A stretch of 41,805 nt of DNA from Gammaproteobacteria bacterium (GCA_031388175.1 JANNEA010000188.1:1-41805), one strand, 5' to 3'. Shown: positions 28,342 to 37,596, counted from the stretch's first letter. Numbers and translations: made by a program. Notes: generated from the sequence alone by a model not told the origin.

Positions 28342-28568
28342 GCCTCCCTAAGACGCGGGCGCGATACCGGTCGGCGGACCGATGCAAGGTCGGCATCCAT
28401 CGCTGCGGTCCATCGTGATGCTCTCGTTGAGGTCCGGGACCTGCATGGTTCGGCCGAAGCGGTATCGCGTCCGCGTCTTAGCAAGGCCGAAGCCATGCAG
28501 GGCCCGGACCTCACCGTGACTCAATCGCCGATGGAGAGCAGCGATGCGTTGCCGCCCACGGCAGCGGT
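28342..28568 (-). repeat. Gene-end hairpin element at the putA 3' end, plus an inverted extra core at 28342-28375
   Basis: Arms 28428-28455 and 28485-28513 nearly perfect; outer 28398-28415 is a 16/18 inverted match to putA 28529-28546; core GGCCTTGCTAAGACGCGGACGCGATACCGCTTCGGCC. Confidence 0.8.
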
Positions 28569-31500
28569 GTTGATCGTGATCGTCCGTTCCGTCGCGAAAC
28601 GGTGCATGTAGTAGGGACCGCCCGCTTTGGGTCCGGTGCCGGAAAGGCCCTGGCCACCGAACGGCTGCACGCCGACGACCGCGCCGATCATGTTGCGGTT
28701 GACGTAGATGTTGCCCACGCGCACGCGGCGCTGGATGTAATCCACCTGGCCGTCGATGCGCGAGTGGATGCCGAGCGTGAGACCGAAGCCGGTGCGGTTG
28801 ATCTGGGCGATGACCTCGTCGAGCTCGCTCGCCTTCCAGCGCACGATGTGCAGCACCGGACCGAACACTTCGCCCTTCAGGACATCGAGCGACGGGATCT
28901 CGACCGCGAGCGGCGCGACGAAGGTCCCATGCGCGCATTCGGCCGGCAGCGCGATCTCGTGCACCACTTTGCCCTGGGTCTTGATCCAGTCGCGGTGGGC
29001 GTCGAGACCCTCCTTCGCCGCCTTGTCGATGACGGGGCCGATGTCGGTCTCGAGCAGCGCCGGATCGCCGACCTTGAGCTGTTGCATGTAGCCCTTGAGC
29101 ACCTCGAGCGTGCGGTCGGCGATGTCCGCCTGCACGAACAGCACGCGCAGCGCCGAACAACGCTGGCCGGCGCTGTTGAACGACGACGCCACCACGTCGA
29201 GCACGACCTGCTCGGGCAGCGCCGAGGAATCGACCAGCATCGCGTTCTGACCGCCGGTCTCGGCGATCAGCGTGGCGATTGGGCCGCTCTCGCGTTCGGC
29301 GAGCGTGCGCTGGATGGTGCGGGCGGTCTCGTTGGAACCGGTGAAGCACACGCCGGCGACGCGCGGATCCGCGATCGCGGTGCGCCCCACCACCGAGCCG
29401 CGGCCCGGGATGAAGTTCAGCACGCCGCCCGGCACGCCGGCCTGGTGCAGCAATTGCACCGCGCGCGCACCGATGATCGAGGTCTGCTCGGCGGGCTTGG
29501 CCAGCACCGCGTTGCCGGCGGCGAGCGCCGCGGCCACCTGCCCCGTGAAGATCGCGAGCGGGAAGTTCCACGGGCTGATGCAGACGAACACGCCGCGGCC
29601 CTGGAGCCAGAGCTCGTTCGATTCGCCGGTCGGGCCCGGCATCTTCAAGCCCTGGCCGAAGTCGTGCTCGGCCTGCTGCGCGTAGTAGCGCAGGAAATCC
29701 ACCGCCTCGCGCACTTCGGCCACGCCATCCGCCAGCGACTTGCCGGCCTCGCGCGTGCACAGCGCCATCAGCTCGAAATAGTTCTCCTCGAACAGGTCCG
29801 CCGCGCGGCGCAGGATCTTCGCGCGCGCCGCGGCCGGCGTCATGTCCCAGGCCGGTTGCGCCGCGACCGCCGCGTCGACCGCCTGCTTGATCGTGTCGGC
29901 GTCGGCCTCGAGGATCATGCCGGCGATACGGCGGTTGTCGGTGGGGTCGAGCGAAGGCTTCTCCTTGCCGGAGAGCGTCTTGCCATCCACCACTGGCGCC
30001 GCCACCCACTTGCGCTGGAGCGCGCGCGTCATCGCCTCGCGTAGCGGCGCGAGCACCGCGGGATCGTTCAGGTTGATGCCACGGGAGTTCACGCGGTTCG
30101 CTCCGTAGAGGTTGATCGGCAGTGGGATGCGCGGGTGCGGCTTGATGCGGAGCGCCTCGACCTCGGCGACCGGGTCCGAAACGATCTCGTCCACCGGCAC
30201 GCGCTCATCGACGATGCGGTTCACGAACGACGTGTTGGCGCCGTTCTCGAGCAGGCGGCGCACCAGGTAGGGCAGCAGGTCCTCGTGGCTGCCCACTGGC
30301 GCGTAGATGCGGCAGGCGATGCCCAGGCGGCCTCCGTCGGATGGAGGGCCCACGACCTGGCCGTAGAGCTCCTCGCCCATGCCGTGCAGCCGCTGGAACT
30401 CGAAGTCGCGGCGAGCACCTGCCATCTCAACCACGCTCGCGAGCGTGTGCGCGTTGTGGGTCGCGAACATCGGATAGATGCTGCTGCCCGCGGCGAGCAG
30501 CGTGCGCGCGCAGGCCAGGTAGGAAACGTCGGTCGAGCACTTGCGCGTGAACACCGGGTAGGAGGCGAGACCGCGCTCCTGATGGCGCTTCACCTCGCTG
30601 TCCCAATAGGCGCCCTTCACCAGGCGCACCGGGATGCGACGACCGCCCTCCTTGCTCAGCGCGACCACCCACTCCACCGCGCCGATCCCACGCTTCAAGT
30701 AGGTCTGGATCGCGAGGCCGAGCCCGTCGTATCCGGCGAGGCTCGGCGAGCAGTAGACCTGCTCGAAGACTTCCAGGGAGATGTCGAGCCGCTCGGATTC
30801 CTCGGCATCCACGGTGAGACCGATGCCCGCGGCCTTGGCCCGCTCAGCGAGCATGCGCAGGCCCGGCACGAGCTCGGTCAGCACGCGCTCGCGCTGGGCG
30901 TAGTCGTAGCGCGGGTGCAGTGCCGAGAGCTTGACCGAGATGTTGGCGCGCTCGACCAGCTCACCACCGCCCGCTGCCTTGCCGATCGTGTCGATCGCGA
31001 CGGCATAGGCCTGCAGGTAGCGGTCAGCATCGGCTGCGGTGAGCGCGGCCTCGCCGAGCATGTCGTAGGAGTGGCGGTAACCGACCGCTTCCGCCTCGCG
31101 TGCGCGCTCGAGCGCCGACTCGATCGTGCGGCCCATCACGAACTGCTTCGCCATCAGGCCCATCGCCTGCTTGAGCGCGGTGCGGACCACCGGCTCGCCG
31201 ACCCGGGCGATGAACTTCTTCCCCAGCGCCGCCGGTTCGGCGGCGAAGGCCGGATCGAGCTGGACGAAGTGGCCGGTGATGAGCAGGCCCCAGGTCGAGA
31301 GGTTCACGAACAGCGACGGCGACTGGCCGCGGTGCTCGTTCCAGTCGCCCTTGACCAGCTTGTCCTCGATCAAGCGGTCCGCGGTCAGCGCATCAGGCAC
31401 GCGCAGCAGCGCCTCGGCCAGGCACATCAGCACCATGCCTTCGTGCGAGGACAGGTCGTACTCGCGCATCAGGGCATCCACACCCGAGCCCTTGACCCGT

Positions 31501-31694
31501 GCGGCACGGGTCTGGACCACGAGCCCCTCCGCCATCCGCATCACGCGCGCGGTCGCCGCCGCGTCCAGCTTGGCGATGCGCGTCAAGCGCTCGACACACG
31601 CGGTCTCGTCGGCGAGCCACAGCGCATCGAGCGCAGCACGCGTGCCGCTGAGCTCATGGACCGAGCTGCGCCAGACGAAGCTCTGTTCGCTCAT
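28521..31694 (-). CDS. putA: Bifunctional proline dehydrogenase / P5C dehydrogenase PutA (short form, no N-terminal DNA-binding domain evident)
   Basis: SYDMLGEAA, VRLVKGAYWDSE, FATHNAHT, EFQRLHGMGE, YLVRRLLENGANTSF, SAGQRCSALR, GTGPKAGGP. Confidence 0.97.
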   Translation of the reverse strand: MSEQSFVWRSSVHELSGTRAALDALWLADETACVERLTRIAKLDAAATARVMRMAEGLVVQTRAARVKGSGVDALMREYDLSSHEGMVLMCLAEALLRVPDALTADRLIEDKLVKGDWNEHRGQSPSLFVNLSTWGLLITGHFVQLDPAFAAEPAALGKKFIARVGEPVVRTALKQAMGLMAKQFVMGRTIESALERAREAEAVGYRHSYDMLGEAALTAADADRYLQAYAVAIDTIGKAAGGGELVERANISVKLSALHPRYDYAQRERVLTELVPGLRMLAERAKAAGIGLTVDAEESERLDISLEVFEQVYCSPSLAGYDGLGLAIQTYLKRGIGAVEWVVALSKEGGRRIPVRLVKGAYWDSEVKRHQERGLASYPVFTRKCSTDVSYLACARTLLAAGSSIYPMFATHNAHTLASVVEMAGARRDFEFQRLHGMGEELYGQVVGPPSDGGRLGIACRIYAPVGSHEDLLPYLVRRLLENGANTSFVNRIVDERVPVDEIVSDPVAEVEALRIKPHPRIPLPINLYGANRVNSRGINLNDPAVLAPLREAMTRALQRKWVAAPVVDGKTLSGKEKPSLDPTDNRRIAGMILEADADTIKQAVDAAVAAQPAWDMTPAAARAKILRRAADLFEENYFELMALCTREAGKSLADGVAEVREAVDFLRYYAQQAEHDFGQGLKMPGPTGESNELWLQGRGVFVCISPWNFPLAIFTGQVAAALAAGNAVLAKPAEQTSIIGARAVQLLHQAGVPGGVLNFIPGRGSVVGRTAIADPRVAGVCFTGSNETARTIQRTLAERESGPIATLIAETGGQNAMLVDSSALPEQVVLDVVASSFNSAGQRCSALRVLFVQADIADRTLEVLKGYMQQLKVGDPALLETDIGPVIDKAAKEGLDAHRDWIKTQGKVVHEIALPAECAHGTFVAPLAVEIPSLDVLKGEVFGPVLHIVRWKASELDEVIAQINRTGFGLTLGIHSRIDGQVDYIQRRVRVGNIYVNRNMIGAVVGVQPFGGQGLSGTGPKAGGPYYMHRFATERTITINTAAVGGNASLLSIGD

Positions 31695-31706
31695 CTAGAA
31701 GGACAT

Positions 31707-37211: not shown

Positions 37212-37402
37212 GACCGGACCTGTCGAGGCTCGGCTTCGCTCCCGCACTCGAAGACTCGTGAAGTCGCTTCAGCCGACCTCGACAGGTCCGGTCTGAACCC
37301 GATCGGTCGAATCCCCTGACTTCCCCGACCGGAAGGGGTGTCGAACATTCGAAGCCGTGCGGTGCGGAAGCCGGTGCATCAACACTGGTGAGATGTCGAT
37401 GC
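37099..37402 (+). repeat. Gene-end hairpin element at the tdh 3' end with a ~110-nt inverted degenerate copy of tdh
   Basis: 17-bp perfect stem 37212-37228 / 37277-37293; 37366-37402 is a 29/37 inverted match to 37099-37135; 37314-37330 is a 15/17 inverted match to 37171-37187. Confidence 0.85.
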
Positions 37403-37449
37403 GCTTGGTATTTGGTCGAGGACCACCTTGCCGAAGGGCGTGGTCATTA

Positions 37450-37596
37450 AAGACCTCGCGGCGGCCGTACGCGCGACGCTGAGCGCAGCCCGGTTCAAGG
37501 TCTGAAGCGACATCGCGAGTCCCCGAGCGCCGGAGCGAAGACCTTGAACCGGGCTGCGCTCAGCGCCGCGTGCGCGGCTTCAAACGCGCGGTCTTG
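37450..37596 (-). repeat. Gene-end hairpin element at the thioesterase 3' end
   Basis: 27-bp perfect stem 37477-37503 / 37539-37565 including the stop codon; degenerate pairing continues outward; core CTTCGCTCCGGCGCTCGGGGACTCGCGATGTCGCTTCAG. Confidence 0.85.

What the first reader, a model, noticed from the sequence alone, without database searches (positions are those of the whole stretch)
28342..37596. Family of oriented gene-end elements that carry an inverted copy of the host gene's 3' end
Seen: four intergenic elements lie right after the stops of putA, Nudix, tdh and the thioesterase. Each has a 35-50 nt core at a hairpin tip. The arms are unrelated between the putA/Nudix and tdh/thioesterase loci; at every locus the outer part of the far arm is a reverse-complement copy of the local sequence, running into the neighbouring gene's coding end. 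Identity is near perfect next to the core and decays outward. Read in the gene's sense, all four cores point the same way: CCTTGCTAAGACGCGGACGCGATACCGCTTCGG (putA), CCTCGCTAAGACGCGGACGC...CGCGTCGG (Nudix), CTTCGCTCCCGCACTCGAAGACTCGTGAAGTCGCTTCAG (tdh), CTTCGCTCCGGCGCTCGGGGACTCGCGATGTCGCTTCAG (thioesterase). Shared pattern: CYTYGCT...RRGACKCGBGA...CGCKTCRG. Established: REPs and MITEs conserve their stems, so a conserved loop with locus-specific stems is the reverse pattern. Inference: the core is a cis site for a trans-acting enzyme (nickase, HUH/RAYT-type or RT-like) that drives fold-back copying of flanking DNA. Alternatively it yields long 3' dsRNA that controls mRNA fate. No candidate enzyme is in this window.
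Basis: partly seen in the sequence, partly recalled or inferred. Interest (0 to 1): 0.9.

Follow-up and report, generated by a model that had tools for sequence, protein, structure and literature searches.

The report
Gene-end hairpins with conserved loops
This uncultured bacterium carries dozens of long DNA/RNA hairpins parked right after gene stop codons whose tips are almost identical everywhere while their stems differ from place to place, an unusual, lineage-private repeat family whose tip looks like a docking site for an unknown factor.

Summary
The 22-nt core CTAAGACGCGGACGCGATACCG occurs 41 times in this 2.08-Mb draft genome. It sits at the tip of 18-32 bp near-perfect hairpins. At least five further loop families (B-F) show the same plan. 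Stems covary strongly: 77-80% paired against 48% in shuffles, 0/500. Hairpins abut stop codons: 23 of 32 start -11 to +13 nt from the stop. They point one way relative to the gene, 16 against 2. No Rfam family matches. The core was not found in 65 genomes of the order, in 150 of the class, or in a scan of 185,579 species genomes beyond 3 chance hits.

The 'fold-back copying of host DNA' reading is mostly not supported. Stems form heritable subfamilies. Only 1 of the 4 window elements runs into a coding end. One empty orthologous site lacks the near arm. Orthologous copies keep the loop while both arms change together, with matched indels.

Best reading: whole-hairpin elements whose loop is a selected factor-binding site and whose arms are kept paired by arm-to-arm templating. 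Function and mobilising enzyme are unknown.

The parts
28422..28519 (-). Type-A hairpin directly after the putA stop (28521-28523). In gene sense the 5' arm is 28493-28519 and the 3' arm 28422-28448. The loop is 28449-28492, with the 22-nt core at 28460-28481.
   Evidence: Inverted repeat I10 and core match. MFE -65.5 kcal/mol. CM R1 score 67 bits.
28348..28369 (+). Fifth A-type core (one mismatch), inverted relative to putA/sdaA, 42 nt upstream of the sdaA start. It has only an 8-bp stem (28322-28329 / 28368-28375). Probably a decayed or solo copy.
   Evidence: I7; stem score 3. CM R1 score 62.7 bits for 28312-28404.
34350..34445 (-). Type-A variant hairpin 10 nt after the Nudix stop (34456-34458). 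Arms are 34350-34375 and 34420-34445. The core is split by a nested mini-hairpin (34382-34401) that replaces the GATACCG part.
   Evidence: Inverted repeat I13, 26 nt, 92%. Sequence. The mini-hairpin is unique in the genome. NUDIX Pfam hit.
37212..37293 (+). Type-B hairpin starting at the base after the tdh stop (TAG, 37209-37211). Arms are 37212-37233 and 37273-37293; the core is 37234-37272. A TGA follows the 3' arm directly.
   Evidence: (I2). The tdh C-terminus is at the ancestral position in 24 relatives.
37464..37578 (-). Type-B hairpin at the thioesterase end. Arms are 37464-37503 and 37539-37578 (40 nt, 90%); the core is 37502-37540. The gene-proximal arm contains the last 5 codons and the stop (37560-37578).
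   Evidence: Inverted repeat I1. Sequence. The C-terminal tail is not shared by 8 distant homologues.

Best explanation
The window holds five members of a lineage-private superfamily of long hairpin elements: families A-F, roughly 70 or more copies in a 2.08-Mb draft.

The unit that is inherited and duplicated is the whole hairpin of about 85-95 nt. It lodges at gene 3' ends, mostly flush with the stop codon, often in convergent intergenic regions, and in one fixed orientation.

Its apical loop is held constant by selection as a binding site for a trans-acting factor. For A and C the predicted loop fold is a 2-bp closure, a 5x5 internal loop, and a 3-4 bp mini-stem capped by a GGA-containing tetraloop. 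The stems need only to pair.

The two arms are kept complementary by arm-to-arm templating (intrastrand template switching at quasi-palindromes). Stems therefore drift in concert and look locus-specific.

Shown: copy number, architecture, covariation, position, orientation, loop conservation at orthologous loci, concerted arm changes, stem subfamilies, lineage restriction.

Inferred: that the loop binds a factor; that template switching is the homogenising mechanism; that the role is at gene ends (insulation, 3'-end formation or mRNA stability). The acting strand may be the one antisense to the abutting gene.
For: Copy number and architecture:
- 41 A cores.
- Families: C, 11 real copies of 13 BLAST rows; D, 9; F, 6; E, 3 real of 4 rows; B, 3.
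- Stems are 18-32 bp, median 27, in 37 A/B/C hairpins.
- MFE is -39 to -92 kcal/mol in 30 copies.

Covariation: all 30 of 30 stem pairs change on both sides. 77.4% of cells are paired against 47.6% in shuffles, 0/500. Slid registers give 34-47%.

Loop selection: in C59 vs L060 the stem differs at 7 of 20 positions, 5 of them compensated, yet the 28-nt loop is identical. 6 of 8 orthologous pairs have identical cores.

Concerted arms: in C133 vs L061 the inner 11 bp are swapped (ATGTCCCGGTC to GGCCACCGGCC) with matching changes in the other arm, and the outer stem has matched indels in both arms.

Whole-hairpin inheritance:
- 42 of 703 arm pairs exceed the 99.9% shuffle level, against 0.7 expected.
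- The CCTA/TCT internal-loop subfamily is visible.
- C81 and C190 have near-identical 28-nt arms behind different flanks.

Position: 23 of 32 stems start -11 to +13 nt from the stop.

Orientation: sense-only 16 against antisense-only 2 for A+B+C. Family D is reversed, 4 against 0.

Turnover:
- G000 has an A hairpin where L066 has a canonical terminator.
- G000 has an element where L062 has a 10-nt spacer.

Template switching that homogenises inverted-repeat arms is described in the abstracts of PMC7202029, PMC8604942 and PMC3820800. I read only the search listing and abstract starts.

The predicted loop folds of A and C are alike.
Against:
- The hairpins are not canonical terminators. T is 14% (sense) and 17% (antisense) in the 12 nt after the stem. 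Two A hairpins lie just downstream of ordinary terminators (C2 and C157), so they need not be in the upstream mRNA.
- Mismatches are asymmetric: 5'C:3'A 29, against A:C 6, T:G 4, G:T 6. Plain pairing selection on the sense mRNA does not predict this.
- TAG stops are enriched next to the elements, 17 of 32 against 24% genome-wide. The model does not explain this.
- Loop identity could also be kept by repeated re-insertion of fresh copies rather than by host selection. C10 vs L062:10834 carry different loop subtypes and unrelated stems at one site.
- The loop folds do not differ from shuffles (z -0.2 and -0.4).
- The gene calls used for position and orientation are my own crude GC3-based calls, with 78% coding coverage.
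Confidence: 0.5

Rival explanations
1. Selfish REPIN-like mobile hairpins. A strand-specific ssDNA hairpin is recognised at its loop and moved by a trans-acting HUH/Y1 (RAYT-like) or other nickase. Loop identity reflects replication competence and turnover, not a host function. Gene-end position reflects where insertions are tolerated.
For: - Presence/absence differs between related species, and different subtypes occupy one orthologous site.
- Families cluster on a few contigs: C on C158 and C95; D on C134, C176 and C193.
- One strand folds better through G.T/G.U pairs, as in HUH substrates. The comparison with HUH substrates is recalled, not tested here.
- Two Y1_Tnp genes are present.
- Conserved loop with variable stems is the layout of rolling-circle Rep nick sites (recalled).
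- Elements are enriched between convergent genes, as described for REPs in passages I read in PMC3184786.
Against: - The RAYT at C124 is flanked by family H palindromes, not by A-F. The one at C192 has no A-F core nearby.
- Y1_Tnp genes occur in 35 of 66 genomes of the order, which lack the cores.
- Vertically inherited copies (C59/L060, C9/L063) keep a perfect loop while the stems diverge. A decaying selfish copy should not do this.
- No terminal repeats or target duplications were seen on inspecting the CCTA-subfamily flanks.
Confidence: 0.22
2. A core-specific nickase, HUH enzyme or RT drives fold-back synthesis that copies the local flank, including gene 3' ends, into the far arm, so each stem is made de novo at its locus.
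For: - The thioesterase arm contains 19 nt of ORF.
- At C107 and C95 the extended stem includes the stop codon.
- Many stems begin exactly at the stop.
- The mismatch spectrum is arm-specific: the 3' arm carries A opposite a 5'-arm C 29 times. This would fit one arm being the copied, error-bearing strand.
- The tdh element reads TAG[hairpin]TGA. Removing TAG plus hairpin restores the ...DWS-TGA end seen in 20 of 24 relatives.
Against: - Stems are heritable across loci, and in one subfamily both base and loop are conserved around a variable middle.
- Only 3 of 32 stems enter an ORF.
- Pairing beyond the stems is near chance, 186/588.
- The thioesterase tail inside the arm is an unconserved extension.
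- The empty orthologous site shows no near arm.
- No RVT_1 gene was found in a 95%-complete genome.
- The TAG...TGA pattern was seen in 1 of 6 flush-with-stop elements that I inspected.
Confidence: 0.1
3. The elements are RNA modules of mRNA 3' ends. Long perfect dsRNA, a potential RNase III substrate or exonuclease barrier, carries a GGA-presenting apical loop that recruits an RNA-binding protein such as CsrA. This tunes mRNA fate or translation termination at the adjacent stop.
For: - Stems abut stop codons.
- Predicted apical loops of A (GGAC), C (CGGA) and F (UGGA, AGGGAC) all display GGA.
- A CsrA gene is present.
- TAG stops are enriched.
- In outline this resembles bacterial SECIS: a hairpin after a stop codon with a conserved apical loop and gene-specific stems (recalled).
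Against: - The sense strand has C.A rather than G.U mismatches: 35 antisense-wobble against 10 sense-wobble, p=2.5e-4.
- The two conserved U.G pairs of the family D loop exist only on the strand antisense to the abutting gene.
- 3 A copies have AGAC instead of GGAC.
- The loop TAA shows no reading-frame preference relative to the upstream ORF: 11 of 26 in frame, my count from the distances.
- tdh ends at its ancestral position.
- Two copies lie behind canonical terminators.
Confidence: 0.12
4. The core is a tiny insertion that homes into the loops of pre-existing hairpins (terminators), so the stems are simply older local palindromes.
For: Cores sit at hairpin tips at gene ends, where terminators are expected. 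Nested insertion into a loop does occur: the mini-hairpin inside the Nudix core.
Against: - In the genome scan, hairpins with loops of 3-5 nt and arms of 22 nt or more all belong to repeat family H. The ordinary terminator-like ones have arms of 16-20 nt. Core-bearing stems have a median of 27 bp.
- The inner stems and the base are partly conserved within subfamilies.
- A relative (400 kb of G017) has only 22 hairpins with arms >=14, mostly short terminators.
Confidence: 0.04

Closest known systems
REP / REPIN elements mobilised by RAYT (Y1/HUH) transposases
   Same: Short, GC-rich, extragenic hairpin repeats in tens to hundreds of copies, biased to gene 3' ends and convergent intergenic regions. 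They act in a strand-specific way as ssDNA. The positional bias is stated in passages I read in PMC3184786; the rest is recalled.
   Different: In REPs the stem sequence is conserved and the tip varies; here it is the reverse. The RAYT gene is normally flanked by its own REPs. Here only family H, a separate ordinary palindrome family, flanks a RAYT. No constant GTAG-type tag was seen.
Structured multicopy repeats with compensatory changes (bcr1 of Bacillus; SPRITE, BOX and RUP of S. pneumoniae)
   Same: Small intergenic repeats that fold. Compensatory base changes are reported for bcr1. [quoted passage not shown]
   Different: Those families are recognisable along their whole length and some have direct-repeat flanks. 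Here only 22-57 nt of loop are alignable between most copies, and the stems are 18-32 bp and near perfect.
Bacterial SECIS elements (recoding hairpin bound by SelB)
   Same: A hairpin placed immediately 3' of a stop codon, with a conserved apical loop read by a protein and stems that differ from gene to gene (recalled).
   Different: In SECIS the stop is internal and translation continues through the hairpin. Here tdh ends at its ancestral position, and the loop's TAA shows no frame preference (11 of 26, my count). The stops are TAG, TGA and TAA alike.
Rolling-circle origins and HUH nick sites (conserved loop on variable GC-rich stems)
   Same: A conserved single-stranded loop is presented by a stem whose sequence is free. 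The recognition is strand-specific (recalled).
   Different: Those occur once per replicon, next to a rep gene. Here there are dozens of chromosomal copies at gene ends with no linked gene.
Quasi-palindrome template-switch mutagenesis
   Same: It explains multinucleotide, both-arm changes and the extension or homogenisation of inverted-repeat arms (abstracts of PMC7202029, PMC8604942 and PMC3820800, seen in the listing).
   Different: It is a mutational process, not an element family. It can also invert the spacer, which is not seen here.

Membership tests
REP/REPIN | The conserved sequence is the imperfect palindrome (stem); the tip or spacer is variable | tested here: not met
   The loop is invariant at 16 of 22 core positions in 29 copies. 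All 30 stem pairs vary on both sides.
REP/REPIN | A cognate RAYT gene flanked by inverted copies of the repeat | tested here: not met
   The Y1_Tnp gene at C124:12755-13078 is flanked by family H sites at 12601 and 13428. The one at C192 has no A-F core in the 3.3 kb around it.
REP/REPIN | Extragenic, multicopy, biased to gene ends and convergent intergenic regions | tested here: met
   41 A copies. By crude gene calls, 23 of 28 A and 9 of 10 C copies follow a gene end.
MITE | Conserved terminal inverted repeats and target-site duplication | tested here: inconclusive
   No shared termini or duplications were seen on inspecting the flanks of 41 copies, including the CCTA subfamily. No formal search was run.
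Intrinsic (Rho-independent) terminator | Short GC-rich stem-loop followed by a U tract | tested here: not met
   T is 14% (sense) and 17% (antisense) in the 12 nt after 37 hairpins. Stems are 18-32 bp with loops of 20 nt or more.
SECIS-like recoding signal | Hairpin with conserved apical loop just 3' of a stop codon | tested here: met
   23 of 32 stems start -11 to +13 nt from the stop.
SECIS-like recoding signal | The stop is read through and the ORF continues in frame through the hairpin | tested here: not met
   The tdh length equals that of 24 relatives. 11 of 26 loop TAA codons are in frame, against 1/3 expected (my count).
Any Rfam 15 family | Match at the curated gathering score | tested here: not met
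   0 matches on the whole window. At E<=1 on 28250-37650 there were only two sub-threshold plant miRNA-precursor models, 37 bits against a gathering score of 105 and 24 against 95.
CsrA/Rsm binding hairpins | GGA presented in the loop of a short stem and bound by CsrA | tested here: inconclusive
   GGA lies in the predicted apical loops of A, C and F, but the folds are not better than shuffles for A and C. 3 A copies read AGAC. A CsrA gene is present. Binding is not testable here.

The most novel reading that the evidence does not exclude
A new class of self-templating hairpin element. A loop-specific, strand-specific enzyme recognises the conserved tip on the strand antisense to the gene. It repeatedly re-synthesises one arm from the other, and on insertion may extend into local DNA. 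Under this reading the element writes its own stem, which would explain four things together: perfect but locus-specific stems, the arm-specific C:A error signature, matched indels in both arms, and stems that stop at or include stop codons.
Probability: 0.12. Interest if true: 0.9.

Novelty: new variant of a known kind. Interest (0 to 1): 0.62.

Why it matters
Small hairpin repeats such as REP, REPIN and MITE are normally recognised by their conserved stems. Here several families in one small genome are conserved only at the tip, sit flush with stop codons in a fixed orientation, and change both arms in concert. If the loop is a factor-binding site, this lineage offers a natural set of 70 or more sites for finding a new gene-end factor acting in insulation, 3'-end formation or termination. 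It also gives an unusually clear natural record of arm-to-arm templating in bacterial palindromes. Practically, such elements are invisible to stem-based repeat finders, and here they break or mis-join assemblies: 17 of 390 contig ends carry a core.

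Tried and rejected
Known RNA family: rejected.

Wider distribution of the cores:
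- Core A at <=2 mismatches: 0 of 40 relatives.
- Core C at <=3 mismatches: 0 of 65 genomes of the order.
- Exact 20-mer: 3 single hits in unrelated MAGs, none in a hairpin.
- Covariance model R1: 0 of 150 class-level genomes, with stricter filters and only 28 candidates scored per genome.
- The counts include genomes flagged unpublished (G031, G038, G044, G064, G065). No conclusion depends on them.

Similar loop families in a relative: 400 kb of G017 gave 22 hairpins and, by inspection, no shared loops. This is one genome only.

Trans-acting complementary RNA or locus: no clustered 12-mer matches outside the elements.

RT involvement: no RVT_1 gene.

Link to RAYT: not specific to this genome.

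Thioesterase C-terminus as a test of 'arm copies CDS': the homologues are only 33-40% identical, so the test is inconclusive.

'Native stop displaced behind the element' (TAG[hairpin]TGA): seen at tdh only, of the 6 flush elements I inspected by eye.

Mini-ORF ending at the loop TAA: 7 of 13 ATG-bearing arms are in frame. I judged this a subfamily relic (by eye).

The promoter/terminator consensus scan was too noisy to use.

Literature:
- Four loop strings gave 0 papers.
- Word searches for conserved-loop/variable-stem repeats found nothing matching.
- The paper on REPs close to stop codons that I recall was not in the listing.
- Supplementary files were not consulted.

I make no claim about habitat or expression.

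Contig-end copies (C90/C9 share a right flank; the C81/C190 arms are crossed) look like assembly joins through the repeat. I did not use them as evidence of recombination.

Full report
WHAT IS IN THE WINDOW

The window is the whole of contig C37 of a 2.08-Mb, 195-contig, 68% GC draft genome rated 95% complete.

- serine dehydratase (26917-28305, -)
- PutA (28521-31694, -)
- a NUDIX protein (34456-35130, -)
- Kbl-like aminotransferase
- Tdh (36186-37211, +)
- a 4HBT thioesterase (37560-38117, -)

- putA: 28422-28519
- Nudix: 34350-34445
- tdh: 37212-37293
- thioesterase: 37464-37578

The first two carry the A core CTAAGACGCGGACGCGATACCG. In the Nudix copy its 3' part is replaced by a nested mini-hairpin that is unique in the genome. 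The other two carry the 39-nt B core, and all four read in the sense of the gene. A fifth A core (28348-28369, +) lies inverted upstream of the serine dehydratase start and has only an 8-bp stem.

IT IS A GENOME-WIDE SUPERFAMILY

Copy numbers:
- The A core occurs 41 times at <=4 mismatches.
- It occurs 34 times at <=2 mismatches, against 0 for the reversed control.

A blind scan for inverted repeats (332 with arms >=14) followed by BLAST with the loops showed further families built the same way, each with a conserved loop and unrelated stems:
- C, GCTCCCGCAGGCGGACCTGAAGTCGC: 11 real copies among 13 rows. It is related to B.
- D: 9 copies.
- E: 3 real copies among 4 rows.
- F, with a 57-nt loop: 6 copies.

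Family H (GAAATAGGTATCAGAGTCAATTTC, 30 half-sites) is different. It is an ordinary palindrome family with conserved stems.

Hairpin properties:
- Stems of 37 A/B/C hairpins are 18-32 bp, median 27.
- 30 complete A copies fold at -39 to -92 kcal/mol.
- 17 of 390 contig ends carry a core within 120 nt, so the true number is probably higher.
- Some contig-end copies are mis-joined. C90 and C9 share one flank, and the arms of C81 and C190 are crossed.

COVARIATION

I aligned 29 in-register A copies, 20 from this genome and 9 from metagenome contigs. I left out the 5 copies whose linkers are out of register by one base and the stemless copy at 28348.
- 16 core columns are invariant.
- All 30 stem pairs change on both sides.
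- 77.4% of cells pair, against 47.6% in shuffles (0 of 500 reach the observed value) and 34-47% in slid registers.

POSITION AND ORIENTATION

All position and orientation counts rest on my own GC3-based ORF calls, which are crude (78% coding coverage).

Position: of 42 well-paired A/B/C/D hairpins, 32 have a sense ORF ending within 160 nt upstream. Of those 32, 23 stems start between -11 and +13 nt of the stop.

Orientation, for elements with >=400 nt on both sides:
- A+B+C: an ORF ends next to the element on the sense side only in 16 cases and on the antisense side only in 2. Both sides: 4. Neither side: 10.
- D: 4 against 0 the other way. The gene-sense form of D is therefore the reverse complement, which then shares CTCGAAGACTCG with B.

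The hairpins are not canonical terminators. T is 14% and 17% in the 12 nt after the stem on the two strands. Two A copies (C2, C157) follow ordinary terminators.

DISTRIBUTION

The core was not found:
- at <=2 mismatches in 40 relatives;
- as core C at <=3 mismatches in 65 genomes of the order;
- with covariance model R1 in 150 class-level genomes;
- as an exact 20-mer in one genome per 185,579 species, beyond 3 single hits that are not in hairpins.

400 kb of one relative (G017, 56% GC) holds 22 hairpins with arms >=14 and, by inspection, no shared loops. None of 24 relatives shows a comparable element after tdh, by inspection.

The metagenome scan found 11 stretches. Seven of them (L058-L063, L066; 69-71% GC) hold 9 further hairpin copies and are syntenic with contigs of this genome at 72-90% identity. 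The family is therefore private to this lineage among everything searched. Rfam has no matching family.

HOW THE ELEMENTS EVOLVE

Eight orthologous pairs can be compared. The core is identical in 6 of them. It differs by 1 base in C133/L061 and by 3 in C10/L062.

The stems behave very differently:
- C59/L060: 7 of 20 stem positions differ and 5 are compensated. The 28-nt loop is unchanged.
- C133/L061: the inner 11 bp are replaced on both arms and the outer stem shows matched indels on both arms.
- C9/L063: the middle 18 bp are largely rewritten, but both versions pair perfectly.
- C72/L062, C106/L066 and C10/L062: unrelated stems. In the last pair the loop subtype also differs.

There are presence/absence differences too:
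- Where L066 has a canonical terminator after the orthologous EAL-type gene, this genome has an A hairpin. Nothing like its near arm is present in L066.
- Where L062 has a 10-nt spacer, this genome has an element. That element is cut by a contig end.

STEMS ARE NOT MADE FROM LOCAL DNA

The 5' arms of different copies are related much more often than chance. 42 of 703 pairs lie above the 99.9th percentile of shuffles, against 0.7 expected. A few of those pairs are orthologues.

One subfamily (C9, C14, C88, C90, both C155 copies, L060, L063) shares a G-rich base and the internal loop GGCCTAGC/GCTCTCC around a variable mid-stem. Position-specific information in the arms is low but not zero, reaching up to 1.0 bit next to the loop.

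Pairing beyond the stems is 186/588, near the composition expectation. Only 3 of 32 stems enter the ORF.

In the one window case, the thioesterase, the residues inside and before the arm form a C-terminal extension not shared by 8 distant homologues. The ORF may therefore have run into the element rather than the element having copied the ORF.

These results argue against fold-back copying of host flanks as the general origin of the stems. The concerted arm changes are best explained by templating of one arm on the other. Template switching at quasi-palindromes is known to homogenise and extend inverted-repeat arms and to produce multinucleotide changes (abstracts of PMC7202029, PMC8604942 and PMC3820800 in the listing).

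UNEXPLAINED SIGNALS

1. Mismatches in 50 stems are asymmetric. 5'C:3'A occurs 29 times, against A:C 6, T:G 4 and G:T 6.
   - Antisense-wobble against sense-wobble is 35 to 10, p=2.5e-4.
   - The reverse-complement alignment accordingly pairs better: 80.1% against 77.4%, with 101 against 88 further pair types.
   - The two conserved U.G pairs inside the D loop exist only on the strand antisense to the abutting gene.
   - Either the folded, selected molecule is the antisense strand (RNA or ssDNA), or one arm is repeatedly copied with a biased error.

2. TAG stops are enriched beside the elements: 17 of 32 against 24% genome-wide, p=5e-4. In family A the figure is 13 of 19.

3. Predicted loop folds of A and C share one plan: a 2-bp closure, a 5x5 internal loop and a mini-stem with a GGA-containing tetraloop. 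The two F apical loops also show GGA. The A and C folds are no better than shuffles, however. A CsrA gene is present.

CANDIDATE ENZYMES

Two Y1_Tnp genes exist in the genome.
- The one at C124 is flanked by family H sites, a typical REPIN/RAYT arrangement.
- The one at C192 has no A-F core nearby.

Such genes occur in 35 of 66 genomes of the order. No RVT_1 gene was found. No complementary trans locus was found.

VERDICT

The claim that arms copy coding ends holds for 1 of the 4 window loci.

The most likely account (0.5) has three parts:
- Whole-hairpin elements lodge at gene ends.
- Their loop is a selected binding site for an unknown factor.
- Their arms are kept paired by arm-to-arm templating.

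Rivals:
- purely selfish HUH-mobilised hairpins: 0.22
- sense-mRNA 3' modules: 0.12
- loop homing into older hairpins: 0.04

I found no printed description of such elements with the searches. These cover only the held open-access library.

Noticed in passing
window 1531-1581 and 4249-4333; also G000:C124:12601-13428: Family H palindromes (GAAATAGGTATCAGAGTCAATTTC, 30 half-sites genome-wide) have conserved stems. An inverted pair flanks a Y1_Tnp gene at C124:12755-13078. This is an ordinary REPIN/RAYT system, separate from families A-F.
   Followed up: partly
genome-wide (50 hairpins); window 28422-28519 included: Stem mismatches are strongly arm- and strand-asymmetric: 5'C:3'A 29, against A:C 6, T:G 4 and G:T 6. 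The strand antisense to the abutting gene therefore folds better (80.1% against 77.4% paired).
   Followed up: partly
genome-wide; window 37209-37211: TAG stop codons are enriched at genes followed by an element: 17 of 32 against 24% of 1354 called genes, p=5e-4. In family A the figure is 13 of 19.
   Followed up: partly
window 37209-37296: The tdh element reads TAG[82-nt hairpin]TGA. Deleting TAG plus the hairpin would leave ...DWS-TGA, the ending seen in 20 of 24 relatives. None of the other 5 flush-with-stop elements I inspected shows this.
   Followed up: partly
window 34382-34401: An AT-richer mini-hairpin (8-bp stem, 4-nt loop) is nested inside the A core of the Nudix element and replaces its GATACCG part. 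It has no other copy in the genome.
   Followed up: yes
G000:C81:1-241 and G000:C178:1-135: Perfect 100-nt and 60-nt inverted repeats lie at contig starts inside what looks like coding sequence. These are probably assembly fold-back artefacts, unrelated to the elements.
   Followed up: no
G000:C90:1-165 vs C9:1-165; C81:4257 vs C190:17624: Contigs share one flank of an element but not the other, or carry arms that pair with an arm on another contig. The conserved core seems to mis-join contigs.
   Followed up: partly
L062:8216-8437 vs G000:C114:8926-9024 and C72:1-127: A 73-codon ORF (MRYG...) is tightly packed between two genes in the related contig. In this genome its 3' part or the spacer after it holds an A element in the opposite orientation, cut by a contig break.
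   Followed up: partly
G000 families C, D and F (e.g. C158:5455-11575, C134:3799-6973): Loop families cluster on a few contigs (C on C158 and C95; D on C134, C176 and C193), which suggests local spread. The F loops (57 nt) fold significantly (z -2.8) into two hairpins with UGGA and AGGGAC loops.
   Followed up: partly
G017 (L071-L090) vs G000: Base composition differs widely within the order: 56% GC in 400 kb of G017 against 68% in this genome.
   Followed up: no
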